DNA from: Candidatus Gottesmanbacteria bacterium | Lineage (GTDB): Bacteria; Patescibacteriota; Microgenomatia; UBA10105; UBA927 | Assembly: GCA_963711735.1 (NCBI GenBank) | Contig: CAVQFA010000005.1 | Coordinates: forward strand, 269,778 to 333,777 | Length of the DNA: 64,000 bases | Direction of reading: 5' to 3' | In this document: positions 18,543 through 54,483 of the stretch, one piece after another | How positions within the stretch are numbered: position 1 is the first letter of the stretch | Layout: every line of letters begins with the position of its first letter | Notes under the pieces: generated by a model | Seen by the model: only the letters and a program-made list of their open reading frames with translations | The model's database searches: none | Told to the model about the DNA's origin: nothing | Position numbers and translations under genes: made by a program

Positions 18543-19001
18543 ATGAATATATCACTGGACCAGTTAAAAAAACTCCGTGAAGAGACTCAGGCAGGTGTAT
18601 CTGACTGCAGACAGGCTCTTGAGGATGCTGAAGGAGACTTCGCAAAAGCAAAAAAAATTCTCCAAAAGCGGGGAATGGAGAAAGCGGCTAAAAAGGAAGG
18701 TAAAGAGACTTCTGAAGGTGTCATTGAATCATATGTACATGCCAACGGGAAAATCGGCGTACTTCTGGAGCTTAAGTCAGAAACAGATTTCGTATCGCGC
18801 AATGACGAGTTCAAAAAGCTTGCACATGAGATTGCCATGCAGATAGCAGCTATGAACCCGAAAAACGTGAAGACGCTTCTGGCAAGTGCATATATCCGTG
18901 ATGCATCACAGACCATTGAAGAACTCCTCAAGATAACAATTGCAAAAGTCGGAGAAAACATTCAGATTACGCGCTTTATCCGTTACCAGCTAGGGGAATA
19001 A
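18543..19001 (+). CDS. tsf: Elongation factor Ts, a short 152-aa form
   Basis: N-terminal UBA-like LKKLREETQAGVSDCRQALEDAEGDFAKAKKIL. It lies directly downstream of rpsB. Confidence 0.8.
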   Translation: MNISLDQLKKLREETQAGVSDCRQALEDAEGDFAKAKKILQKRGMEKAAKKEGKETSEGVIESYVHANGKIGVLLELKSETDFVSRNDEFKKLAHEIAMQIAAMNPKNVKTLLASAYIRDASQTIEELLKITIAKVGENIQITRFIRYQLGE

Positions 19002-19667: not shown

Positions 19668-20756
19668 ATGATAGTAACGATTGTTGTTTTTATTTTTATT
19701 CTCTCGGTACTTGTTCTTATCCATGAGCTTGGACATTTCATTGTTGCCCGTATAATTGGTGTTCATGTAGAGGAGTTTGGAATGGGTTTGCCTCCGCGTA
19801 TCTGGGGAAAAAAAATTAAAGATACAGTTTATTCCCTTAATTGGCTTCCGATCGGTGGTTTTGTAAAACTGGCCGGTGAGGATGACGATCAGCCGGATGA
19901 AATGCATAGCAAAGTCAGCAATTCACAGAAGAAATTTTTTTGGGCACGGTCAAAAAAAGAGCGCTCCGTGATTCTCATCGCCGGTGTTACGATGAATTTT
20001 ATCCTTGCTGTTGCCATTACTGCAGGGCTTCTCCTTGACGGAGTAAAAGAACCGTCCGGAAAAGTGAGAGTAGAAGCCGTAACCGCAGGCAGCCCGGCAG
20101 CATCATCAGGTTTGCAACCGGGGGATATTATTACACAAATTATTATCGGCAAGGAAATTATCAAAGTAACAGTACCGAATGATCTTATCAGCACGGTAAA
20201 AAAACATGCCGGAGAATCTGTTATTTTGGACGTTAACAGGGATAATCAGATACTTCCCTTAAACGTTACACCCCGTAAGACACCACCGAAGGGTGAAGGC
20301 CCTCTGGGTGTGACAATAACGGATTTGGAACTTAGAAAATACAGTATATCAGAGGCTCCGTTTATGGCTTTAAAAATAAACGTAGAACGTGCATATCTTA
20401 TGCTTTCCGGAATTATAAGCACCCTGTGGAGTCTGGTAACACTGAAAATGGGGAAAGTGGATGTTGCAGGGCCTATCGGTATAGCCCAGGTGACAGGGGA
20501 AGCTGTTAAATTCGGATTCCGCGCAGTTCTCGAGTTTATGAGCATATTATCACTGAACCTTGCGGTTTTAAACATTCTGCCGATTCCTGCTCTCGACGGC
20601 GGACGGCTTTTGTTCGTATTTTTGGAAAAAATATTGGGCAGACGGATAAAGCCGGCGTTTGAAAAGCAGACGCACCAGATCGGTATGCTTATCTTACTTA
20701 TCCTTGTTCTTCTCGTTTCGTTGAACGATATTCTCCGTATTACACGAGGGGGATAG
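19668..20756 (+). CDS. rseP: Regulated intramembrane proteolysis zinc metalloprotease, site-2 protease
   Basis: HELGHF zinc motif in TM1, a central PDZ domain and the C-terminal LDGG motif. Confidence 0.8.
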   Translation: MIVTIVVFIFILSVLVLIHELGHFIVARIIGVHVEEFGMGLPPRIWGKKIKDTVYSLNWLPIGGFVKLAGEDDDQPDEMHSKVSNSQKKFFWARSKKERSVILIAGVTMNFILAVAITAGLLLDGVKEPSGKVRVEAVTAGSPAASSGLQPGDIITQIIIGKEIIKVTVPNDLISTVKKHAGESVILDVNRDNQILPLNVTPRKTPPKGEGPLGVTITDLELRKYSISEAPFMALKINVERAYLMLSGIISTLWSLVTLKMGKVDVAGPIGIAQVTGEAVKFGFRAVLEFMSILSLNLAVLNILPIPALDGGRLLFVFLEKILGRRIKPAFEKQTHQIGMLILLILVLLVSLNDILRITRGG

Positions 20757-20846
20757 TATCTTAATTCCTGATTCATAAATCTCGATTAAGGGTTTTTCCC
20801 CCTGATACTTTCGTTTGTACCGGCTCATACAGTACAATATGTTTAT

Positions 20847-22565
20847 ATGAAATTTTCCTCTCTTCCTGTCAGGACAAACAGAAATAACGTTTCGTATGAT
20901 TCCAAAAACGCTACACTTCTTATAAAGGCGGGATTTATAGATCAGGTTATGGCAGGTGTTTACACCTTTTTACCTCTTGGTGTTCGGGTACTTGCGAAAA
21001 TCGAACAGATCGTCCGCGAAGAGATGGATAAAATAGGATCAGAACTTCTTATGCCTGCTATTGTTCCAAAGGATTTATGGATAAAAACAGGTCGTTTTGA
21101 CAGCGTGAGTGTACTTCTAAAAGCCGTCGGGGCAAATAAGCTGTCCCAAACGGTTAATAAGGCAGACTATGTCCTCAGTTCCACTCACGAAGAGGTAGTG
21201 ACGCCCCTCATGCAGAAATTTAATACGAGTTACAAGGATTTCCCCTTTGCCGTATATCAGATCCAGACGAAATTCCGTAATGAACCGCGTGCTAAATCAG
21301 GACTTTTGCGATGCCGTGAGTTTCGTATGAAGGATCTATACAGTTTTCATACATCCGAGGAAGATCTCAAAACATTTTACGAAAAAGTGAAAGAAAGCTA
21401 TACGACTATATTTAAACGTCTTGGTCTCGGTAATGATACGTTTATAGTTCTTGCGTCAGGCGGTGATTTTACAAAGGATTTTTCCCACGAATTTCAGACA
21501 CGGTGTGAAACGGGAGAAGATACGATTTTTCGAATTCCTTCAACCGGAGTATGTTACAACAAGGAAGTAGCTCCGTCCATGGCTTGTCCCGCTCATTACA
21601 AACAGGAAGCTCCCGAACCACGACAGGAAATTCATGGACCCGGAATTATAGGTGTGTCCGATATTGCCAAATTTTTAAATCTTCCGGTTGAACAAATGAC
21701 AAAAACACTTATCTATGAAACGGATGATAAGCAAATTGTCGCAGCAGCAGTCCGCGGCGGATACGACATAAATGAAGAAAAATTGAAAAAAGTTCTTGGT
21801 GCAAAGTCAGTTCAGCTTGCATCACCGGAGGTAGTTAAAAAAGCCACAGGTGCATCAATTGGCTATATCGGGATTCTCAATCTTCCGAAAAGTATCCGTG
21901 TTGTCATGGATGAATCTGTCTATGGAAGGGTAAATTTCGAAACCGGAGCAAACCGTGATAACTACCATACCATAAATGTGAATTTCGATCGTGACATAGT
22001 TAAACCGGATACGTTTTATGATATCAAAACCGCCAAACAGGGTGACTGTAATCCGGAAACCAAAGAAACATACGAAGTATTTCAGGGATCAGAAGTAGGA
22101 AACATATTTCCCTTAAACACGAAATTTACGAAAGCATTCGGCTACACATTCATTGATTCGGACGGCACTCAAAAACCGATATTCATGGGATCGTATGGTA
22201 TCGGCACGTCACGTCTCATGGGTGTTATTGCAGAAAAATCAAGCGATGAGAACGGTCTTGTGTGGAATGATGCGGTTGCACCTTTTACCGTTCATCTGGT
22301 TTCCCTGAAAGGTTCTGAAAATCATGGTCAGGAAGTATATGACACGCTTCAAAATGAAAGCATCGAAGTCCTTTGGGACGACCGCGATGTTTCTGCAGGA
22401 GTTAAATTTTCTGACGCCGATCTGATTGGTATTCCGTACCGTCTCGTCGTATCTCTCAAAACCGGAGATAAGATTGAAGTGAAAAGCCGGAGTGAGAAAG
22501 AACCAATGCTTATTGATCTTCACGCATTCATCAAACGCATCAGAGAAGCATACGTTTCATCGTGA
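20847..22565 (+). CDS. proS: Prolyl-tRNA synthetase, bacterial type with an editing insertion
   Basis: 572 aa with class II motifs (FRNEPRAKSGLLRCREFRMKD), an INS-like central domain and a C-terminal anticodon-binding domain. Confidence 0.9.
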   Translation: MKFSSLPVRTNRNNVSYDSKNATLLIKAGFIDQVMAGVYTFLPLGVRVLAKIEQIVREEMDKIGSELLMPAIVPKDLWIKTGRFDSVSVLLKAVGANKLSQTVNKADYVLSSTHEEVVTPLMQKFNTSYKDFPFAVYQIQTKFRNEPRAKSGLLRCREFRMKDLYSFHTSEEDLKTFYEKVKESYTTIFKRLGLGNDTFIVLASGGDFTKDFSHEFQTRCETGEDTIFRIPSTGVCYNKEVAPSMACPAHYKQEAPEPRQEIHGPGIIGVSDIAKFLNLPVEQMTKTLIYETDDKQIVAAAVRGGYDINEEKLKKVLGAKSVQLASPEVVKKATGASIGYIGILNLPKSIRVVMDESVYGRVNFETGANRDNYHTINVNFDRDIVKPDTFYDIKTAKQGDCNPETKETYEVFQGSEVGNIFPLNTKFTKAFGYTFIDSDGTQKPIFMGSYGIGTSRLMGVIAEKSSDENGLVWNDAVAPFTVHLVSLKGSENHGQEVYDTLQNESIEVLWDDRDVSAGVKFSDADLIGIPYRLVVSLKTGDKIEVKSRSEKEPMLIDLHAFIKRIREAYVSS

Positions 22566-22596
22566 TTCAGGAAACATCGTCAATCCGGACTTTTGT

Positions 22597-23661
22597 ATGA
22601 AATCAGTTACCGTATCAGCACCATGTAAAGTCCATCTTCTCGGAGAACACACAGTTGTATACGGTAAACCTGCTATTCTTGCAGCTGTTGGTAAACGATT
22701 AACCGTTAATGCAACGGTTTTGGATAAACCTATTGTACGGATTCGCTCAGGATCTATTCCCTGTACAGAAGTACGCCTTGATGAAACTATAAAACAAGCC
22801 CGGAATGCCCGGATTATATGGAAGAAATTTTCCAAAACGAAAGATATCAAACTTCTTACGAACATAACCTCAGAAATTGTTGCGTATCCCTTAATTTGTG
22901 TCGGAGAAACGATTCTGTCACTCAAATATCCCGGGAAAAACGGAATAAGCATCGAAATCTCTTCTGATATTCCGATAGGCGGAGGACTCGGATCAAGTGC
23001 AGCAATTCCTGTCTCCATTGCTGCTTCACTCATGCAGCTTATGCATGGAAGGATGGATTTGGAACGTATAAACGGAATTGCCTATGTGTGCGAAAAAATC
23101 CGTCACGGGACGCCATCAGGCGGAGATAATGCAACAGTGACATACGGCGGACTCGTCTGGTATCAGAAAGAATCCGAAATTTTAAATGTAATTAAACCGA
23201 TTCCGTTTGATATACCGGATAACGTGAAAAAAAGTGTGCTTTTTATCAACTCAGGTAAACCGAAAGAATCAACAGGAGAGATGGTGTCTTTGGTGCGTTT
23301 GATGTATGATTCACAAAAGCAGAAAGTTCAGAAAATATTGGATAACCAGGAAAAATTAGTAATGGATATACTTCCTGCGATAAAATCAGGGGATATCAAT
23401 GCATGTATTTCTATAATCCGGAAAGGTGAAGCAAATCTTGAAAAGCTCGGCGTTTGTTCACCGAAAGTTTCGCGATTTATCCGTGAGATAGAACTAGCGG
23501 GAGGAGCAGCAAAGATCTGCGGTGGTGGCGGAAAAGCTAACGGAACCGGTATAGTACTTGCAATTCATCCGCATAAGGAAAAACTGAAGGATATTTTAGA
23601 TAATTCAGGATATCCGTTTTTTGAGGCAGAATTAGGGGTTGAGGGTGTTCAGGTATTATAA
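22597..23661 (+). CDS. mvk: Mevalonate kinase (GHMP kinase)
   Basis: SAPCKVHLLGEHTVVYGKPAILAAV N-terminal motif and the GHMP motif PIGGGLGSSAA. The true ATG is at 22597; the ORF-track start at 22492 overlaps proS. Confidence 0.75.
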   Translation: MKSVTVSAPCKVHLLGEHTVVYGKPAILAAVGKRLTVNATVLDKPIVRIRSGSIPCTEVRLDETIKQARNARIIWKKFSKTKDIKLLTNITSEIVAYPLICVGETILSLKYPGKNGISIEISSDIPIGGGLGSSAAIPVSIAASLMQLMHGRMDLERINGIAYVCEKIRHGTPSGGDNATVTYGGLVWYQKESEILNVIKPIPFDIPDNVKKSVLFINSGKPKESTGEMVSLVRLMYDSQKQKVQKILDNQEKLVMDILPAIKSGDINACISIIRKGEANLEKLGVCSPKVSRFIREIELAGGAAKICGGGGKANGTGIVLAIHPHKEKLKDILDNSGYPFFEAELGVEGVQVL

Positions 23662-23671
23662 ATTACATTAT

Positions 23672-25156
23672 ATGAAAAAAAATATAACAGTATCTGCACC
23701 TGGTAAGCTCATGCTTTTTGGCGAACATTCAGTGGTTTACGGATATCCGTGTCTTGCAACCGCAGTAGGTGAGCGTATGCAGGCAACAATTGAAACCATC
23801 CCGGAATCACAATTTGTTTTGGATGCACCGGATATAAATATATCAAAGTATACTAAGCCTATAAAAGATCTTGGAAAAGGGGATATTCCGGGTTGTGTAC
23901 GTTTTGTGGAAATTGCCGTACATAATTTTCATTCGAAGAATCCGTTACAAAGCGGAATTCATATATCTACATCATCCACATTTTCCCATGAATTCGGATT
24001 CGGAACATCTTCAGCTTCTACAGTATGCACTATCAAAGCACTTAGCCAAATTACAGGTCAAAATTTAGATAATAAGCAGATGTTTGATCTTGCATACAAA
24101 ACAATACTGGATGTTCAAAAAAAAGGATCAGGTTTTGATGTTGCAGTATCCGTATACGGAGGAACAATATATTATTCGCAAAGCGGAAAACATATTGAAC
24201 AAATTCCGTTTGCGATTGGGAGAGATGCAGTTTTTATTGTCGGATATACGGGTGTAAAAGCCGACACATGTAGTCTTGTCCGGCAGGTTGCTGAGAAAAA
24301 AGAAAAATATCCGGAGAAGGTGGAGAGAATTTTTACAGCAATTACTAAGTTAGTAGAAGATGCAAAAATTGCTCTTATAAATCATGATTGGGATCGACTC
24401 GGAACATATATGAATTTCAATCAGGAATATCTCCGGGATCTGGGTGTCAGCACAGAAAAACTCGAAACACTTATATCAGCTGCCAAATCCGAAGGGGCTT
24501 ATGGCGCAAAACTTTCCGGGGCCGGCGGAGGTGACTGCATGATTGCCATAGCTCCGGTACATAAAAAAGAAGCTGTAGAAAAGGCAATTCAGACGGCAGG
24601 TGGAATTGTTATTCCTGTTTGTCCCAACGCCGAAGGAGTCCGCACAGAAACATCAGATGATCCTAAAGAACAATTTATTGTAGTTGATGAAATGGATAAT
24701 GTCTTAGACTATAAAACACGTCATGCGTGTCATCACGATGCGCATCTGATCCATCGTGTCATCGGAGTTCATATATTCAACACAAACGGAGATATTCTGC
24801 TTCAGAAACGGTCATCAACCAAAGACCTGGGAGCGGGTTTATGGGGTTCATCGTGTGCGGGTCATGTTCTGAAAGGTGAAACATATGAAAACGCGGCAAA
24901 GCGTGAGCTTCTTGAGGAATTAGGAGTATCTCATGAAATTGCTCCGGTAAAGAAAATTATCGTGAGGGACAAGGAAGAAACAGAGATGGCGATGATCTAT
25001 ACCGCTACATCAGATGGTCCGTTTCATCCGGATCCGCAGGAAGTAGATGAAGTACGGTTTTTTACCAAAGACCAGATACTCCATGGTATGCTGAAGGGGA
25101 CGTTACGACTGACAAACTGCACAATAGAGAGCCTAAAAGCTATACATTATTTATAA
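23672..25156 (+). CDS. Fusion protein of an N-terminal GHMP kinase (probable phosphomevalonate kinase) and a C-terminal Nudix-type isopentenyl-diphosphate isomerase (IDI type 1)
   Basis: The N-terminus has [17 protein letters not shown] and [13 protein letters not shown] motifs. The C-terminal roughly 160 aa have [21 protein letters not shown]...[29 protein letters not shown], matching the IDI-1 Cys/Glu signature. Confidence 0.65.
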
Positions 25157-25166
25157 GGGTGAACGT

Positions 25167-26148
25167 ATGAAAGCAACAGCGAAAGCTCCGTCAAATATTG
25201 CATTTATCAAATATTGGGGAAAGAAAGATGAGACATTGAGACTTCCGGAAAACGGGAGCATATCCGTGAATTTATCCGGCATGGACAACGAACAACGACG
25301 GTTGAGTTTTCGTCCGGGTATGAAGGAGGACGAAATCCTGTATAACGACAAGAGTGAGAGTACGGCAGAAAATAGGGCAATAGTTCATCTGGATCGCATC
25401 GGAAATTAGCCGATATAGGTGAAAAAGCAAAAGTGTTACAAATAGCAATTTTCCTCACTCGACCGGACTTTCCTCATCCGCATCGGGTTTTGCAGCATTA
25501 ACTGTAGCCGGTTGCCGCGCAGCGGGATTAGATCTGAACGAAAAAGATTTGTCTATCCTTGCGCGCCAGGGATCGGGGAGTGCATGCCGTTCCATTCCAG
25601 ATGGGTTTGTGGAATGGCTAGACGGCAATACCAGCAATGAATCATTTGCTGTTTCGATCTACCCTCCGTCTTATTGGCCGGATTTGATTGATATCGTTGT
25701 TATTGTTACAACCGATAAAAAAGAAATATCGACAACAGAAGGAATGAAAGGAATGCGGAAAAGTCCGTTTTACCAGACTCGTTTGAGAGGTATGAAAGAT
25801 AAAATCCGTTTGTGTAAAGAAGCATTGAAAACAAAAGACTTAGAGAAACTTGGGGAACTTTCAGAAGCTGAAGCACTTGAAATGCATGCGGTCATGATAA
25901 GTCAGCGTCCTGCACTTCTCTATTGGACAAAAGGAACACTGCATCTTATGAAATCCGTTCAAAAATGGCGATACGGGGGATTACCGTGCTATTTCACCAT
26001 TAACACCGGACAGAATGTACACATTTTAACAACAAAAGATCACGAAAAGGAAATTCAGGAAAAACTCAAAAACATTGAAGATGTAAATCGTATCATAATC
26101 AACTCACCCTCGGATGGAGCTCATACCCTCAAAACTCATTTGTTTTAA
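25167..26148 (+). pseudogene. mvd: Diphosphomevalonate decarboxylase interrupted by two -1 frameshifts, possibly sequencing errors
   Basis: Frame 0 gives [31 protein letters not shown]...HLDRIGN then a stop. Frame 2 gives [16 protein letters not shown]. Frame 1 gives NSNFPHSTGLSSSASGFAALTVA...ARQGSGSACRS through to the end. All three pieces are collinear with MVD. Confidence 0.6.
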
Positions 26149-26181
26149 TCCCGGTTCCGGATTCATAGTATAATACGTTTT

Positions 26182-27006
26182 ATGAAAACAATTGTGACGC
26201 ATATAGGACCCGATTTGGATGCAATCACTGCCATATGGCTCGTAAAGACAAGATTTCCCGGATGGCAGGAAGCAGCACTTGCGTTCGTTCCGGCAGGGGA
26301 AACACTCGGCAAACTTCCTCCCGATGATAATCCTGAGGTTATACATGTTGATACGGGATTTGGAAAATATGATCACCATCAGGTGGATGATAATACATGT
26401 GCGTCTATTCGGGTATATAAAGAAATTAAAAGCATATCCTCATCAGATCCGGCGCTTGAGCGGCTGATTACAGTTGTAAATGACATCGATCATTTCCGTG
26501 AGGCATTTTTTCCGAACCCCACATCAGACTATTGGGATTTTGGACTGGTGGCATCCATTGACGGATGGAGACTTCTGTATCCTGACGATCCGACCATTGT
26601 CGTCCATTATGGGATGGATGCTTTAGACGGAATTTATAAAACATTTCAAAATAAAATCTGGGCAGAGGAAGAGTTGACAATAAAGGGCGTGGAATTTGAA
26701 ACAAAATGGGGAAAAGGCATAGGAGTGGAGACAACAAACGATGAAGTTGTACATCTGGGGCAAAAAAAGGGTTACGTTCTGGTTATCCGTAAAGATCCAA
26801 AGAAACATTACTTAAGGGTAAAGGCTCTCCCGCAGCCCAATATTGATTTGTCAGACGCATTTGACAGTATGAAAGCAAAAGATCCTGATGCCACGTGGTT
26901 TCTTCATGTTTCAAAACATATGATACTGAACGGTTCGTCAAAAAATCCGAGCATGCGCCCGACGAAACTTACAATAGATGAAATAATTTCTATTCTGAAA
27001 GAGTGA
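26182..27006 (+). CDS. DHH-family phosphoesterase
   Basis: Motif I HIGPDLDAITA and motif III YDHHQ. Confidence 0.5.
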   Translation: MKTIVTHIGPDLDAITAIWLVKTRFPGWQEAALAFVPAGETLGKLPPDDNPEVIHVDTGFGKYDHHQVDDNTCASIRVYKEIKSISSSDPALERLITVVNDIDHFREAFFPNPTSDYWDFGLVASIDGWRLLYPDDPTIVVHYGMDALDGIYKTFQNKIWAEEELTIKGVEFETKWGKGIGVETTNDEVVHLGQKKGYVLVIRKDPKKHYLRVKALPQPNIDLSDAFDSMKAKDPDATWFLHVSKHMILNGSSKNPSMRPTKLTIDEIISILKE

Positions 27007-27107
27007 GTATAGGGAAGGTCGCGTTTATAAAAATAGTCACGCGATACAAAAGGACGTAATCATCTATATCTTAGAGGTATAAATGAACAGCCCTTTAGGA
27101 GGTACGT

Positions 27108-27593
27108 ATGAAAACTCATATTATTGACGTATACAATCCCGAATCCAAAAATGTTATTTTCGGTCAATCACATTTTATAAAAACAGTGGAAGATATCCAT
27201 GAACTCCTGATTTCTTCCGTTCCGGATATATCTTTTGGATTAGCTTTTTGTGAAGCATCCGGTGCGAGACTCATACGGTCAAGCGGTACGGACAGAGGGT
27301 TAATCAAACTTGCAGAGAAAAATGCCCAAATCGTTGGTGCAGGACATACGTTTATAATATTTCTCGGAAATGCCTACCCGATTAACGTTTTAAATAATAT
27401 TAAACTTTGTCCGGAAGTAGTCCGGATTTTTGCAGCAACATCAAATCCATTGCAGGTAGTAGTCGGAGAAACTTCTCAGGGAAAGGGAGTTTTGGGTGTT
27501 ATAGATGGTGGGTCTCCTCTGGGTATGGAAAACGAGAATGACCGGAAGGAACGGACAAAATTTCTTCGGAAAATAGGTTATAAACTTTCCTAA
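27108..27593 (+). CDS. Conserved 161-aa protein, tentatively resembling the archaeal adenosine-specific kinase family
   Basis: Segments [26 protein letters not shown] and [14 protein letters not shown]. The family assignment is from memory and uncertain. Confidence 0.3.
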
Positions 27594-27749
27594 CACACAC
27601 ATGATATAATGCTACAAGTAGAAATAACACCTTAGAGCTTTTTTGAAATGTTATTCTAAAAAGTTTAGCTTTTCATTACAGGCTCTTTTAAAGCTGTTGT
27701 ATGATCATTCACAACAGTCGTTTAAGGTAGGGAGGTGTTTGTATTTATT

Positions 27750-27947
27750 ATGGTATTTGTTAAAGCACAGCCCGGGGATACATCAGATTCGCTCATCCGC
27801 AAATTTACGCGAAAGGTTCTTACGGAAGGAATTCTACAGGATTTGAAAAAAAGAGAATTTTATCAAAAACCTGCTGAAATCAAAAAAGAACAGAAGCGGG
27901 AGCTTGTCAGACGCCTCAGGCACGCTAACCGGTCATCGTATAAATAG
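27750..27947 (+). CDS. rpsU: 30S ribosomal protein S21
   Basis: MVFVKAQPGDTSDSLIRKFTRKVLTEGILQDLKKREFYQKP. RBS aaggtagggagg precedes the ATG at 27750. Confidence 0.75.
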   Translation: MVFVKAQPGDTSDSLIRKFTRKVLTEGILQDLKKREFYQKPAEIKKEQKRELVRRLRHANRSSYK

Positions 27948-51197: not shown

Positions 51198-51896
51198 TTA
51201 TACTTCAGAAGCCATAAGCGCATCGCTTACTTTGTGCAGTTTTCCGTTTACGATATCATCAAGGTTATGCCATGATTTGTTTATCCGGTGGTCGGTAACC
51301 CTGTTTTGCGGAAAGTTATAGGTTCGGATTTTTTCTGCTCTCATACCCCGACCGATAATGCTTCGTGCCGCTCCGACCGTTTGGGCATTTTTTACCTCTT
51401 CCTGTTCCCAGAGTTTTGCACGGAGCATGGACAATGCAACCGCCCGGTTCTGGAACTGATCTCTTTCAGTCTGGCAGGCCACAACAATACCTGATGGTTT
51501 ATGCCGGAGACGTACAGCTGATGATACTTTATTGACGTTTTGTCCTCCGTGTCCGCCTGAACGGAAAAAGTCCCATTCCAAATCTTCGTTTCGTACCATA
51601 ACGTCATTTTCCGGTATCTCAGGAAGAACAGCTACCGTTGCCGTTGATGTGTGAATTCTTCCTGATCTTTCAGTTGTCGGTATCCGTTGTACTCTGTGGG
51701 TTCCTGCTTCATACTGGAGTCTTGTAAATGCATCAGTTCCTTTGATCCTCACTGCATTTTCCGATACTTCTTCAACTTTCCAACCGAGGATATTCGCATA
51801 TCTGGTATACATACGCATAAGATCCATTGCCCAGATTTTCGCTTCATCACCACCCGGTCCTGCACGAAATTCAAGAATTGCGACATTGGAATTCAT
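51198..51896 (-). CDS. prfA: Peptide chain release factor 1 homologue lacking N-terminal domain 1 (about 232 aa rather than about 360)
   Basis: It begins at the domain-2 region (NVAILEFRAGPGGDEA). It has the PxT-type tripeptide context (RIPTTERSGRIHTS) and GGQ (SGGHGGQNVNK). A TTG six codons upstream gives the ORF-track coordinate 51902. Confidence 0.7.
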   Translation of the reverse strand: MNSNVAILEFRAGPGGDEAKIWAMDLMRMYTRYANILGWKVEEVSENAVRIKGTDAFTRLQYEAGTHRVQRIPTTERSGRIHTSTATVAVLPEIPENDVMVRNEDLEWDFFRSGGHGGQNVNKVSSAVRLRHKPSGIVVACQTERDQFQNRAVALSMLRAKLWEQEEVKNAQTVGAARSIIGRGMRAEKIRTYNFPQNRVTDHRINKSWHNLDDIVNGKLHKVSDALMASEV

Positions 51897-51912
51897 ATTC
51901 AATTATTAGTCT

Positions 51913-53270: not shown

Positions 53271-54483
53271 TTATGTTTTCGACAATCTCCGGACTATATC
53301 GTCAACTGACATCTCTTCCTGTGTTTTGTTTTTCATATCCTTGAGCTTTACAACACCTTTTGCAACTTCCTGTGGTCCCTGAATAACAACAAACGGTATG
53401 CCTTTCCGGTCGGCATATTTCAGTTGCTTGTCGAGCTTGTCATCCGAAGGGTATATATCGGTATTTATGCCGTTTGAACGTAATTTTGCCGTAATTTCGA
53501 GTGATTTTTCCCATAATGATGAGTCAAATACGGTAACAAGTACATTTCCCGATGTCGTAAGCGGTGGGGTAAGTCCAAGTGTATCCAATGCTTCCAGTGT
53601 TCGGTCAAATCCGAGACCAAAGCCAGTCCCTCCGATATCCCTGCCGGCAAGTTTTTGGAGAAGTCCGTCGTATCTCTCACCACCCAATACAGAAAGGTTT
53701 CCCGCGTCCGGTATTTCAATTTCCCAGATAGGACCCATTGAGTAGGAAAACGAGCGTGCAATTGTCGGATCAAACCGGTACCAATCTTCTGGGAAACCGT
53801 ATGATTTAAGGTATGCAAGGATTATTTCAACTTCCTCATTTGGTTTAAGGTTTTTAACGTAAGACAAGTATTCTTTTGCCTTATCAGTACTGATCCCTTT
53901 TCCATCCATTTCCTTCAGTACACCTTCATCACCGATCTTTTTGATCTTGTCGATAGAAACAATTGCCTCATACGGGAGGTCTTTCAGCATGGATCTGGAA
54001 CTGATGTTCACGAGGACTTTTGTACATCCAAGTTGACGGTAAATATCAAGTGATAACGCAATGGTTTCCGCATCAGCATCGGGAGTTTTTATTCCGAAAA
54101 TATCAGCATCCACCTGCGTAAATTCACGGTATCTCCCTTTTTGCGGCTTTTCCGCCCGGAACGTGGATTGTATCTGGTACCGTTTAAAAGGGAACACGAT
54201 AGAATTCTGGTTTTGAGCGATAAATCTGCATGTGGGGACGGTCTGGTCATACCGAAGTGCTACATTTCTCCCGCCCTGATCCTCGAATTTGAAAAACAGC
54301 TTTTCATCCTCACCGATAGCACCGGTAAATATTTCCAGAGGTTCAAGAGTCGGCGTTTCCAGAGGCTCATATCCCCACAGCTGGCAGATTTGGGCAATGC
54401 GTTCCCTCAGCCACTTCCGTTTGGCTGCTTCCGGCGGGTGGGAAATCCCGAAAACCCTTGAGTGATTGGTATTTTGTATCCAT
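53271..54483 (-). CDS. hisS: Histidyl-tRNA synthetase; it needs a +1 frameshift near codon 15
   Basis: The ATG at 54483 gives MDTKYQSLKGFRDFPP. The next frame then gives PEAAKRKWLRERIAQICQLWGYEPLETPTLEPLEIF...RPEKPQKGRYREFTQVD...GGERYDGLL. The shift lies in a C-run near 54436-54440. Confidence 0.7.

What the first reader, a model, noticed from the sequence alone, without database searches (positions are those of the whole stretch)
22597..26148. Compact mevalonate-pathway operon with a GHMP kinase fused to an IDI type 1 (Nudix) domain
Immediately after proS lies a tight operon of mevalonate kinase, a second GHMP kinase whose C-terminus is a Nudix-fold isopentenyl-diphosphate isomerase (Cys/Glu signature WGSSCAGH...[17 protein letters not shown]), and diphosphomevalonate decarboxylase. 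A mevalonate pathway is uncommon in a bacterium, and a kinase-isomerase fusion is not the canonical bacterial arrangement of mvaK1-mvaD-mvaK2-fni. The identity of the second kinase is not determinable by eye. It could be phosphomevalonate kinase, or an alternative-pathway kinase such as isopentenyl-phosphate kinase-like activity.
Basis: partly seen in the sequence, partly recalled or inferred. Interest (0 to 1): 0.55.

Follow-up and report, generated by a model that had tools for sequence, protein, structure and literature searches.

The report
Mevalonate operon with IDI-like Nudix fusion
This is the lower mevalonate-pathway gene cluster typical of Microgenomates-type candidate-phyla-radiation (CPR) bacteria, but the domain fused to its second kinase is not a standard isopentenyl-diphosphate isomerase: it belongs to an uncharacterised sister family that looks built for hydrolysis.

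Summary
The genes are at the stated coordinates: proS, GHMP kinase A (22597-23661), GHMP kinase B fused to a Nudix domain (23672-25156), and a diphosphomevalonate decarboxylase homologue (25167-26148).

1. The decarboxylase frame is broken by two 1-nt deletions, at about 25400 and 25435. hisS in the same window is also frameshifted, so these are probably assembly errors, not decay.
2. The "Cys/Glu signature" is misread. The Cys sits one residue before the catalytic position and is Cys in only 24 of 120 orthologues. The true Cys67 position is never Cys. The quoted string is a perfect hydrolase-type Nudix box. The Tyr104 and Trp161 segments are missing. Both curated IDI models are failed. The IDI metal ligands are kept.
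3. In related CPR operons this domain ("X") is free-standing, or fused behind a canonical IDI-1, so it has a role of its own.

Both kinases score as mevalonate-kinase family. Kinase B carries phosphomevalonate kinase (PMK)-like motifs and is the likelier PMK.

The mevalonate pathway in CPR is already published. The fusion is common there (at least 120 clusters) but I found no description of it. No HMG-CoA reductase, HMG-CoA synthase, thiolase or UppS lies in the window.

The parts
20847..22565 (+). proS (prolyl-tRNA synthetase), the upstream neighbour. Context only.
   Evidence: NCBIfam PRK09194 552 bits, TIGR00409 458 bits.
22597..23661 (+). GHMP kinase A, a mevalonate-kinase-family paralogue (354 aa). 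Likelier to be the mevalonate kinase.
   Evidence: TIGR00549 169.8 bits (cutoff 163.05); all PMK models failed. A profile of 15 orthologues hits only MK structures at the top, at 113-155 bits; S. pneumoniae PMK scores 33. Carries the motif HG(T/N)PSGGDN.
23672..25156 (+). Fusion gene (494 aa plus stop): GHMP kinase B followed by the IDI-like Nudix domain 'X'.
   Evidence: Pfam GHMP_kinases_N, GHMP_kinases_C and NUDIX. 100% identical to database protein P0001. The 120 best clusters share this architecture, and those that carry a source name are labelled Gottesmanbacteria, Microgenomates group or Patescibacteria group.
23672..24658 (+). Kinase B domain. It is MK-like overall but has PMK-type motifs ([15 protein letters not shown]). 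Likelier to be the phosphomevalonate kinase.
   Evidence: TIGR00549 213.7 bits; TIGR01220 PMK 103 bits, below cutoff. Best solved structures are archaeal MKs at 136 bits. Motifs compared with the true PMKs 3GON and 3K17. A PMK HMM scores the kinase B group at 130, archaeal MKs at 93 and kinase A at 87.
24659..25153 (+). Nudix domain 'X': IDI/YfcD-type fold. IDI metal ligands kept, catalytic Cys/Tyr/Trp absent.
24854..24859 (+). Codons Cys395-Ala396. Ala396 occupies the position of the E. coli IDI catalytic Cys67. Cys395 is one residue early and is not conserved.
   Evidence: Alignment with E. coli Idi and human IDI1/IDI2. Column counts over 120 orthologues: Cys67 position A86/G21/S11/T2; Cys395 column A41/V25/C24/S24.
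24860..24928 (+). Canonical Nudix box [23 protein letters not shown] (GX5EX7REUXEEXGU).
   Evidence: Read directly from the sequence. R 119/120 and the three Glu 120/120 across orthologues. IDIs have RRxxYE or RRxxAE at this place (PMC5389931).
25167..26148 (+). Diphosphomevalonate decarboxylase homologue, interrupted by two 1-nt deletions (near 25400 and 25435). Asn replaces the catalytic Asp (FTINTGQN).
   Evidence: Three-frame translations and tblastn. Repaired protein: TIGR01240 255.7 bits, PMD model 164.9 against a cutoff of 475. Best structure is Anaerolinea PMD 6n0x / its mutant 6n0z, with the window carrying the mutant's K and M residues. The Asn variant is shared by L007, L009, L011, L012, L014, L018 and L040.

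Best explanation
The region is the lower mevalonate (MVA) pathway module of a Microgenomates-type CPR bacterium, transcribed with or just after proS.

Two tandem mevalonate-kinase-family kinases most likely perform the two successive phosphorylations. Kinase A would be mevalonate kinase and kinase B phosphomevalonate kinase, at about 60:40 against the reverse assignment. The decarboxylase homologue, which has the diphosphomevalonate decarboxylase (DMD)-type Lys and Met specificity residues, then makes IPP.

The domain fused to kinase B is not a canonical type-1 IDI. It belongs to a large sister family ('X'). X keeps the IDI His3Glu2 metal site and the diphosphate-binding Arg and Lys. It has Ala, Gly or Ser in place of the catalytic Cys. 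It lacks the Tyr104 and Trp161 segments. It carries the complete hydrolase Nudix box, including the Glu of RExxEE where IDI has Arg.

I infer, but have not shown, that X binds a C5 isoprenoid diphosphate (IPP or DMAPP) and hydrolyses it to the monophosphate. That would make it a valve on, or a branch from, the pathway rather than the isomerase. I put this at about 0.45-0.5.

The two frameshifts in the decarboxylase are most likely assembly errors, so the module is probably functional.
For: Operon identity and lineage:
-.
- Related CPR loci show HMGR-HMGS-thiolase-DUF35-kinA-kinB(+/-X)-MDD-UppS.

X is not a canonical IDI:
- Cys67 position never Cys in 120 orthologues; Nudix-box Glu 120/120; H25 115, H32 120, H69 120, E114 119, E116 118 of 120.
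- Tyr104 and Trp161 segments missing.
- IDI equivalog models failed by X domains but passed by canonical domains from the same kind of operon.
- YfcD is the closest structure.

X has its own role:
- Single polypeptides with canonical IDI-1 followed by X sit in CPR MVA operons (L087, L092).
- Free-standing X sits between kinB and MDD (L091) or between kinA and MDD (L089).

Hydrolase leaning:
- IDIs characteristically lack the RExxEE box (PMC5389931).
- Elsewhere X is fused to a HAD phosphatase.

DMD rather than PMD:
- TIGR01240 passed and the PMD model failed.
- K (in YWGKKD) and M (in EGMK) match the 6n0z mutant of Anaerolinea PMD. Mutagenesis of that enzyme is reported to switch PMD to DMD specificity (PMC9254496).
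- The SsoDMD D281N mutant retains DMD activity (PMC9254496).

Frameshifts as artefacts:
- hisS, an essential gene, is also frameshifted in a C-run.
- Both decarboxylase breaks are single missing bases in CC and GG runs.
- The repaired protein has no other lesion and keeps conserved residues across both junctions.
Against: - No assay exists for any member of X, so substrate and chemistry are inferred from sequence alone.
- X retains every IDI metal ligand at 96% or more, which a plain diphosphatase would not obviously need.
- In operons like this one no other IDI is visible within +/-10 kb. None of the 120 best canonical CPR IDI-1 clusters lies on the long contigs that carry fusions. This fits X being the only isomerase there.
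- An IPP/DMAPP diphosphatase fused to a pathway kinase looks wasteful.
- Family X also occurs free-standing in Prevotella and other Bacteroidota, in unrelated gene contexts.
- Kinase assignment is not settled. Kinase B passes the MK model and its best structures are archaeal MKs. The NJ placement of true PMKs flips with the distance correction.
- Some operons show only one of the two kinases (L087, L089).
- The upper pathway and UppS are not in the window, and I could not see the rest of the genome.
Confidence: 0.55

Rival explanations
1. The fused domain is the pathway's IPP:DMAPP isomerase, either a divergent IDI-1 or a Cys-independent variant. The gene would then encode a bifunctional kinase-isomerase that closes the pathway.
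For: - The nearest curated families are the IDI models (86 and 73 bits), scoring above YfcD at 63.
- All five IDI metal ligands and the diphosphate-binding Arg and Lys are conserved.
- The fold belongs to the IDI/YfcD clade.
- In other bacteria a canonical IDI-1 gene sits directly after the MK gene (L025, L028, L031, L046).
- No other IDI is seen near fusion-type operons or on their long contigs.
- Pathway logic: UppS needs FPP, and therefore DMAPP.
- PMC6107057 counts IDI-I as universal in CPR.
Against: - The Cys67 position is never Cys. The Tyr104 and Trp161 segments are absent. The Arg of the IDI box is replaced by the hydrolase Glu in 120/120.
- Both IDI equivalog cutoffs are failed.
- X is fused behind a fully canonical IDI-1 in CPR operons L087 and L092, which would be redundant if X were also an isomerase.
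Confidence: 0.3
2. Reversed kinase roles. Kinase B (the fusion) is the mevalonate kinase, as NCBI and JGI annotate it, and the divergent kinase A is a new MK-derived phosphomevalonate kinase.
For: - Kinase B: TIGR00549 213.7 bits, PRK03926 238.5 bits. Best solved structures are archaeal MKs at 136 bits.
- Its nearest non-CPR genomic relatives are archaeal and Chloroflexi MKs.
- It has the MK-type GEH motif, not the PMK-type GEY.
- With Poisson or uncorrected distances, true PMKs join kinase A in 61-95% of bootstraps.
Against: - Kinase B shares GSGFDVA and SGAGGGDC with the true PMKs 3GON and 3K17. All bona fide archaeal and Chloroflexi MKs have GGGGC or GGGRGG.
- A PMK HMM scores kinase B at 130, archaeal MKs at 93 and kinase A at 87.
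- With Kimura correction, PMKs join the kinase B group in 54-72% of bootstraps. The opposite result is what long-branch attraction would produce.
- Kinase-B-type genes sit next to K-type decarboxylases in CPR, in DPANN archaea and in one Anaerolineae MAG. The DPANN locus L021 also has a separate MK-like gene.
- Kinase A has the rat-MK-like HGNPSGGDN motif.
Confidence: 0.4
3. Decaying relic. The module has lost its upper pathway and UppS, and the decarboxylase is a true pseudogene. The organism would take isoprenoid precursors from a host.
For: - Two uncompensated frameshifts in the decarboxylase.
- Unlike most related loci, the window has no HMGR, HMGS, thiolase, DUF35 or UppS next to the kinases or anywhere in the 64 kb.
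- CPR bacteria have reduced, host-dependent metabolism (PMC6107057 and general knowledge).
Against: - hisS in the same window carries a similar frameshift, so the assembly has indel errors.
- Kinase A and the fusion are intact with all family-invariant residues.
- The repaired decarboxylase has no stop codon or other lesion, and its identity to orthologues is normal at 48-50%.
Confidence: 0.12
4. Alternative route. The decarboxylase is a phosphomevalonate decarboxylase (haloarchaeal/Chloroflexi-type route through isopentenyl phosphate and IP kinase), so only one kinase is a pathway kinase.
For: - The best solved structure is Anaerolinea PMD (6n0x, 267 bits).
- Operons with a single kinase exist (L087, L089).
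- PMC6107057 reports IPK homologues in Microgenomates.
Against: - The window enzyme has the Lys and Met of the DMD-like 6n0z mutant, not the Asn and His of wild-type PMD.
- All CPR orthologues have Lys or Arg at the first site, while the Chloroflexi PMD-type sequences (AthPMD and L081) have Asn.
- The PMD model NF040704 is failed (164.9 against 475), while TIGR01240 is passed.
- No IPK motif in the window or in the CPR loci.
Confidence: 0.1

Closest known systems
CPR (Microgenomates) mevalonate gene cluster, described by Hoshino & Gaucher 2018 (PMC6107057)
   Same: Same lineage and the same enzyme set: two GHMP kinases and a decarboxylase. Relatives have the archaeal-type thiolase/HMGS/DUF35 plus HMGR-I upstream and a cis-prenyltransferase downstream.
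   Different: The window holds only the three lower-pathway genes, placed after proS. The paper mentions fused proteins only as something trimmed before tree-building. It treats the Nudix homologues as IDI-I and does not note the missing catalytic residues.
Type-1 isopentenyl-diphosphate isomerase (E. coli Idi, PDB 1NFS/1HX3; human IDI1, 2DHO)
   Different: No Cys67. The Tyr104 and Trp161 segments are absent. RExxEE stands in place of RRxxYE/RRxxAE. A 5-residue deletion is shared with YfcD. Scores fall below both equivalog cutoffs.
E. coli YfcD (PDB 2FKB), a putative Nudix hydrolase of unknown substrate
   Different: YfcD lacks the equivalents of H25, H69, E114 and E116, which X keeps. The NCBIfam YfcD model is failed (62.6 against 152).
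IPP/DMAPP-hydrolysing Nudix enzymes: M. mazei MM_2582, plant NUDX1/3, E. coli NudB and NudF as used for isoprenol production. This comparison rests on my own knowledge, apart from the NCBIfam model NF041653.
   Same: They are Nudix hydrolases that take a terminal phosphate off C5 isoprenoid diphosphates. They serve as a working analogy for the proposed activity of X.
   Different: Not the same family. NF041653 (Nud_hyd_Meth) scores 45.7 bits against a cutoff of 300. No activity is known for X.
Diphosphomevalonate decarboxylase and phosphomevalonate decarboxylase (Anaerolinea PMD 6N0X and its 6N0Z mutant; E. faecalis MDD 5V2L)
   Same: Full-length homology (272 bits to 6n0z, 202 to 5v2l). All ATP- and substrate-binding motifs are present. 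The Lys and Met are DMD-type.
   Different: The catalytic Asp is Asn (FTINTGQN), as in a CPR subclade. PMC9254496 states that this Asp is conserved in all known decarboxylases of the family, although the SsoDMD D281N mutant stays active. The reading frame is broken twice in this assembly.
ERG8-type phosphomevalonate kinase (S. pneumoniae 3GON; Listeria 3K17) and archaeal mevalonate kinase (M. mazei 6MDE/4HAC)
   Same: Kinase B shares GSGFDVA and SGAGGGDC with the PMKs. It shares GEH and its overall similarity with the MKs.
   Different: Kinase B fails every PMK model and passes the MK model. It behaves as an intermediate between the two families. Kinase A is a separate divergent MK-family clade.

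Membership tests
Type-1 IDI (IPP isomerase) | Score above the curated equivalog cutoffs (NF002995 at 127; TIGR02150 at 105.8) | tested here: not met
   The window domain scores 86.1 and 73.3. Canonical controls score 170/143 (L087 N-half), 147/119 (L014) and 157/153 (L025).
Type-1 IDI (IPP isomerase) | Catalytic Cys (E. coli Cys67; second Cys of NTCCSH) | tested here: not met
   Ala396 in the window. Across 120 orthologues the column is A86/G21/S11/T2. The window's Cys395 is one position early and is Cys in 24/120.
Type-1 IDI (IPP isomerase) | Catalytic Glu116 and the metal ligands His25, His32, His69, Glu114 | tested here: met
   Conserved in 118, 115, 120, 120 and 119 of 120 orthologues respectively.
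Type-1 IDI (IPP isomerase) | Tyr104 and Trp161 (the (S/T)PW motif) lining the carbocation pocket | tested here: not met
   A 5-residue deletion lies where Tyr104 sits, and there is no (S/T)PW motif at the C-terminus. Both features are present in the canonical CPR and bacterial IDI-1 sequences aligned alongside.
Type-1 IDI (IPP isomerase) | Degenerate Nudix box (RRxxYE or RRxxAE) | tested here: not met
   The window has [13 protein letters not shown] is invariant in the family. The IDI box forms are taken from PMC5389931.
Type-1 IDI (IPP isomerase) | IPP to DMAPP isomerase activity | not testable with these tools
   Needs an enzyme assay or complementation.
Nudix pyrophosphohydrolase | Nudix fold and the canonical box GX5EX7REUXEEXGU | tested here: met
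   Pfam PF00293 73 bits. Box at 24860-24928. AF2 model pLDDT 94.7, with Nudix hydrolases and IDIs as all top hits.
Nudix pyrophosphohydrolase | Hydrolysis of a diphosphate substrate | not testable with these tools
   No member of family X has been characterised, as far as the searches showed.
Mevalonate kinase (TIGR00549) | Score above the equivalog cutoff of 163.05, plus the GHMP motifs and the catalytic Asp and Lys | tested here: met
   Kinase A 169.8 bits; kinase B 213.7 bits. PGKxxLxGEH, GxGSS and SGxD motifs are present in both. Because both pass, the model cannot tell which one is the MK.
Phosphomevalonate kinase (ERG8/Gram-positive/archaeal GHMP type) | Score above the cutoffs of TIGR01220 (165.7), TIGR01219 (377) and NF040957 (500) | tested here: not met
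   Kinase B scores 103.3, 28.9 and 88.1. Kinase A scores 53.9, no hit, and 50.7.
Phosphomevalonate kinase (ERG8/Gram-positive/archaeal GHMP type) | PMK-type motifs GS(x)GD(I/L/V)A and SGAGGGDC; motif I GEY | tested here: inconclusive
   Kinase B has GSGFDVA and SGAGGGDC but GEH. Kinase A has none of the three. PMK HMM: kinase B 130, archaeal MK 93, kinase A 87. Tree placement depends on the method.
Diphosphomevalonate decarboxylase (TIGR01240) | Score above the cutoff of 171.35 and DMD-type specificity residues | tested here: met
Lys in YWGKKD and Met in EGMK match the 6n0z mutant.
Diphosphomevalonate decarboxylase (TIGR01240) | Catalytic Asp of the DAGPN loop | tested here: not met
   The window has NTGQN. 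PMC9254496 reports that the SsoDMD D281N mutant keeps DMD activity, so this does not by itself argue against function.
Diphosphomevalonate decarboxylase (TIGR01240) | Uninterrupted reading frame | tested here: not met
   Two -1 frame changes, at about 25400 and 25435. Probably assembly errors, since hisS is affected too.
Phosphomevalonate decarboxylase (NF040704) | Score above the cutoff of 475; Asn and His specificity residues | tested here: not met
   164.9 bits. The window has Lys and Met.

The most novel reading that the evidence does not exclude
Family X is a previously unrecognised enzyme of isoprenoid metabolism. In CPR it is an integral part of the mevalonate pathway, fused to a pathway kinase or to a canonical IDI-1. 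It would be one of two things:
- a dedicated IPP/DMAPP diphosphatase that feeds or regulates an isopentenyl or dimethylallyl monophosphate pool; or
- a third, Cys-independent way of isomerising IPP.

Alongside it, the kinase B clade (CPR, DPANN, one Anaerolineae MAG) would be the living intermediate between mevalonate kinase and phosphomevalonate kinase. The Asn-type decarboxylase would be a natural variant of a residue thought to be invariant.
Probability: 0.35. Interest if true: 0.7.

Novelty: new variant of a known kind. Interest (0 to 1): 0.5.

Why it matters
- Thousands of proteins of family X are labelled 'isopentenyl-diphosphate isomerase' (COG1443-style labels, seen in the JGI names), or are hidden inside genes labelled 'mevalonate kinase'. 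They lack the residues that make IDI-1 an isomerase. If X is a hydrolase, metabolic reconstructions of CPR bacteria that count it as IDI leave those organisms without a known route to DMAPP.
- If X is an isomerase, it works by unknown chemistry.
- The two MK-family kinases and the DMD-like enzyme that sits closest to a PMD bear directly on an open question: how the PMK/DMD route arose from the MK/PMD route. This question is raised in PMC6107057 and PMC9254496.
- From my own knowledge: an IPP/DMAPP-specific diphosphatase would also be useful for isoprenol and prenol production.

Tried and rejected
1. Looking up the source contig through the exact protein P0001 returned nothing on record. The window's genome was also not among the 80 genome-contig loci, so the rest of the genome stayed out of reach.
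2. I tried to detect HMG-CoA reductase on the same 371,484-bp contig by searching with the L007 HMGR and looking for that contig length. All 120 listed hits were 66% identical or more, Daviesbacteria-type, and none matched. Uninformative.
3. The same contig-length trick with a canonical CPR IDI-1 found no match to fusion-bearing long contigs. Only the top 120 of 379 hits were visible, so this is weak evidence.
4. The promoter and terminator scan of 20500-27800 found fewer promoter-like sites than shuffled sequence and no convincing terminator. Not used.
5. The first NJ tree was built on badly trimmed sequences and is discarded. A rerun timed out. The final trees are method-dependent, so I do not rest the kinase assignment on phylogeny.
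6. Literature searches for the fusion, for Gottesmanbacteria or Patescibacteria with mevalonate, and for YfcD found no description of the fusion or of family X. The PMK ternary-complex paper (PMC2913249) is not held.
7. The afdb50 fold library was unavailable.
8. Programmed -1 frameshifting in the decarboxylase was considered and rejected. Neither site has a slippery heptamer, and the two shifts do not compensate each other.
9. A Thermoplasma-type route (M3K/MBD) was considered and rejected. Those models score 33.5 and 53.4 bits against cutoffs of 440 and 560.

Full report
**What is in the sequence**

Between 20847 and 26148 all genes lie on the + strand and are tightly packed.
- proS is at 20847-22565 (PRK09194, 552 bits).
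- After 31 nt comes GHMP kinase A (22597-23661, 354 aa).
- After 10 nt comes a 494-aa gene (ATG 23672, stop 25156). It carries GHMP_kinases_N, GHMP_kinases_C and NUDIX.
- After a further 10 nt comes a decarboxylase homologue that runs to 26148.

The G+C content of the region (0.41-0.425) matches the rest of the window.

**The decarboxylase is not one open reading frame**

It reads in the frame of 25167 up to Ile (atc, 25398-25400). It then reads in the -1 frame for twelve codons ([12 protein letters not shown], 25400-25435). From gtt (25435) to the stop it reads in a further -1 frame.
- tblastn with orthologues covers residues 1-78 and 87-326 in different frames.
- Adding one base at each site (atc[c]gg and gtg[g]tt) restores a 327-aa protein. 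That protein has no other lesion and keeps conserved residues across both junctions (HLDRIRKLA, AKVxTNSNFP). It scores 255.7 bits on TIGR01240, cutoff 171.

The same window has a second broken gene. In hisS (53271-54483, minus strand) the first 16 codons, MDTKYQSLKGFRDFPP, are in a different frame from the rest. The shift falls in the run CCCACCCGCC near 54435. A frameshift at codon 17 of an essential tRNA synthetase is far more likely to be an assembly error than biology. I therefore do not read the decarboxylase frameshifts as decay, but only the raw reads can settle it.

**Lineage and comparative context**

The fusion protein is 100% identical to a database entry from a 371,484-bp contig.
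- The next 119 clusters are 47-59% identical and all have the same GHMP+NUDIX architecture. Where they are named, they come from Candidatus Gottesmanbacteria, the Microgenomates group or the Patescibacteria group, and NCBI and JGI call them 'mevalonate kinase'.
- Related loci show a conserved operon: HMGR, archaeal-type HMGS, thiolase, DUF35, kinase A, kinase B (with or without the Nudix domain), decarboxylase, cis-prenyltransferase (UppS).
[quoted passage not shown] A mevalonate pathway here is therefore expected, not surprising.
- The window differs in holding only the three lower-pathway genes. tblastn with the upper-pathway and UppS proteins of relatives finds none of them in the 64 kb. 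Motif scans for UppS, IPK, trans-prenyltransferase, HMGR, DXS and IspG also find nothing.
- I could not reach the rest of the genome.

**The fused Nudix domain is not a canonical IDI-1**

I aligned it with E. coli Idi (taken from the MG1655 record), human IDI1 and IDI2, E. coli YfcD, and canonical IDI-1 genes from neighbouring loci.
- The window's WGSSCAGH lines up with E. coli WTNSVCGH and human FTNTCCSH. Ala396 therefore occupies the catalytic Cys67 position, and Cys395 lies one residue early.
- Over the 120 orthologues the Cys67 column is A86/G21/S11/T2. The Cys395 column is A41/V25/C24/S24/T5/I1.
- The stretch holding Tyr104 is deleted, as in YfcD. The C-terminal (S/T)PW motif with Trp161 is absent.
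Its Arg is present in 119/120 and its three Glu in 120/120. Srouji et al. (PMC5389931) state that IDIs lack this box, having RRxxYE or RRxxAE instead.
- The domain does keep the IDI-specific metal ligands (H25 115, H32 120, H69 120, E114 119, E116 118 of 120) and the diphosphate-binding Arg and Lys.
- It fails both NCBIfam IDI equivalog models (86.1 against 127; 73.3 against 105.8). Three canonical controls pass them.

**The domain is a family of its own ('X') with its own role**

An exhaustive HMMER search with the domain found 7274 representatives at E<=1e-3 and 1812 at E<=1e-10.
- Most of the top 150 are free-standing proteins of 165-190 aa with the same residue signature.
- Several proteins of about 350 aa are tandems. 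The first domain has every canonical IDI-1 feature (CCSH, RR box, Tyr, SPW). The second domain is X.
- The contexts are CPR MVA operons:
  - L087: HMGR-HMGS-thiolase-DUF35-[IDI::X]-kinase B-decarboxylase-UppS.
  - L092: [IDI::X]-kinase A-kinase B-decarboxylase-...-UppS.
  - L091: ...kinase A-kinase B-X-decarboxylase-UppS, with a 4-nt overlap between kinase B and X.
  - L089...kinase A-X-decarboxylase-UppS.
- Other CPR operons have a free canonical IDI-1 beside the kinases and no X (L013, L014, L016). Others have neither.
- A polypeptide that joins a complete IDI-1 to X argues that X does something other than what IDI-1 does.
- Outside CPR, X occurs free-standing in Prevotella and other Bacteroidota in uninformative contexts. 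It also occurs fused to an IspA/YciB membrane protein, a HAD phosphatase or TfoX_N.

**What X most likely does**

This part is inference. The retained IDI pocket residues suggest a small isoprenoid diphosphate as ligand. The gain or retention of the first Glu of RExxEE, together with the loss of Cys, Tyr and Trp, suggests hydrolysis of the diphosphate rather than allylic isomerisation. From my own knowledge, that Glu is the general base in MutT, and IDI has an Arg at that position. The HAD fusion fits a diphosphate to monophosphate to alcohol logic.

My best guess is an IPP/DMAPP (possibly MVA-5-PP) diphosphatase, at about 0.45-0.5. The main rival, at about 0.3, is that X is a Cys-independent isomerase. 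In its favour:
- The IDI metal site is strictly conserved.
- Fusion-type operons show no other IDI nearby.
- None of the 120 best canonical CPR IDI-1 clusters lies on the long contigs that carry fusions.

Precedents for IPP/DMAPP-hydrolysing Nudix enzymes exist (M. mazei MM_2582, plant NUDX1/3, E. coli NudB; my own knowledge). X is not their orthologue: NF041653 scores 45.7 against a cutoff of 300.

**The two kinases**

Both pass the mevalonate-kinase equivalog TIGR00549 (A 169.8, B 213.7; cutoff 163). Both fail all PMK models.
- Kinase B is closest to archaeal MK structures at 136 bits. Its nearest non-CPR genomic relatives are archaeal and Chloroflexi MKs.
- A 15-sequence profile of kinase A hits only MKs at the top.
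- Motifs point the other way. True PMKs have GEY, GSxGD(L/I)A and SGAGGGDC. These are S. pneumoniae 3GON, Listeria 3K17 and the PMK genes of L025, L028 and L031.
- Kinase B has GEH, GSGFDVA and SGAGGGDC. Every bona fide archaeal or Chloroflexi MK has GGGGC or GGGRGG. Kinase A has the rat-MK-like HGNPSGGDN.
- A PMK HMM scores the kinase B group at a median of 130. Archaeal MKs score 93, kinase A 87 and Chloroflexi MKs 60.
- Kinase-B-type genes sit next to Lys-type decarboxylases in CPR, in DPANN archaea (L019, L021) and in one Anaerolineae MAG (L022). L021 also has a separate MK-like gene.
- Neighbour-joining trees are not decisive. With Kimura correction the PMKs join the kinase B group in 54-72% of bootstraps. 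With Poisson or uncorrected distances they join kinase A in 61-95%, which is the pattern expected from long-branch attraction.

I favour A = MK and B = PMK at about 60:40. On that reading the database name 'mevalonate kinase' for the fusion would be wrong.

**The decarboxylase**

Its best solved relative is Anaerolinea thermophila phosphomevalonate decarboxylase (6n0x; identified as AthPMD in PMC9254496).
- It scores slightly higher against the 6n0z variant. That variant differs from 6n0x by Asn to Lys in YWGNRD and His to Met in GH. The window has Lys and Met at these two sites.
- All CPR orthologues have Lys or Arg at the first site, while the Chloroflexi PMD-type sequences (AthPMD and L081) have Asn.
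- Together with TIGR01240 passed and the PMD model failed, this favours a diphosphomevalonate substrate, which in turn requires a PMK.
- The catalytic Asp of the DAGPN loop is Asn in the window (FTINTGQN) and in a CPR subclade: L007, L009, L011, L012, L014, L018, L040 and the triple fusion P0113.
- PMC9254496 says this Asp is conserved in all DMD, PMD and MBD enzymes. It also says that the SsoDMD D281N mutant keeps DMD activity, whereas the Thr and Val mutants become 3-kinases. The Asn is therefore notable but compatible with function.

**Verdict**

It is wrong about the 'IDI type 1' identity and the Cys/Glu signature.

The MVA pathway in CPR is published. The kinase::X fusion is abundant in databases, but I found no description of it in the accessible literature. 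What remains of interest is the following:
- family X as an unassigned, pathway-embedded enzyme that is widely mislabelled as IDI;
- the MK/PMK-intermediate kinase;
- the Asn-type decarboxylase.

I rate it a new variant of a known kind, with interest 0.5.

Noticed in passing
window 53271-54483 (minus strand), shift near 54435: hisS is frameshifted. The first 16 codons (MDTKYQSLKGFRDFPP) are in a different frame from the remaining ~390 codons. The shift lies in the run CCCACCCGCC. This points to indel errors in the assembly.
   Followed up: yes
window 51198-51902 (minus strand): A release-factor-1-like gene of only 234 aa. Pfam PCRF matches only profile positions 98-194, so the N-terminal domain is missing. 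The gene starts 10 nt after rpmE, leaving no room for the missing part.
   Followed up: partly
window 25990-26010 (FTINTGQN); loci L007, L009, L011, L012, L014, L018, L040; protein P0113: A CPR subclade of the decarboxylase has Asn where the catalytic Asp of DAGPN sits. That residue is described as invariant in decarboxylases of this family.
   Followed up: partly
L025:8651-10915, L028:8603-10900, L031:4510-6774, L046:503-2743: MAGs labelled Calditrichaceae, Calditrichaeota, Planctomycetota and Gammaproteobacteria encode proteins of about 750 aa followed directly by a canonical IDI-1 gene. Pfam, run on L025 only, shows an HMG-CoA reductase::mevalonate kinase fusion.
   Followed up: partly
P0113 (812 aa; metagenome protein): A triple fusion, kinase B::X::decarboxylase, in one polypeptide. 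Its X domain has lost the ExE pair.
   Followed up: no
L087:8001-9047, L092:82-1137 (also P0362, P0363): Tandem proteins with a canonical IDI-1 domain followed by an X domain. L087 and L092 sit inside CPR mevalonate operons. In L087 the tandem takes the place of kinase A.
   Followed up: yes
L089 (whole 10.3-kb contig) and L087: Operons with only one of the two kinases: kinase A only in L089, kinase B only in L087. Either the other kinase is encoded elsewhere, or one kinase suffices.
   Followed up: partly
L001:9562-9996, L002:2440-2874: An extra 144-aa ORF with no Pfam match, inserted between kinase A and the fusion gene in two Gottesmanbacteria-like loci.
   Followed up: partly
window 18543-19001 and 27108-27593: EF-Ts is only 152 aa. 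A PF04008 'adenosine specific kinase' family gene (238 bits) lies two genes downstream of the operon.
   Followed up: no
L001, L003, L087, L089, L091 flanks: CPR mevalonate operons are repeatedly flanked by arrays of small T4SS-pilin-like genes, an ECF-type sigma factor, Yip1, SpoIID and DUF5657. The window's operon is in a different neighbourhood: proS upstream and an unassigned 274-aa gene downstream.
   Followed up: no
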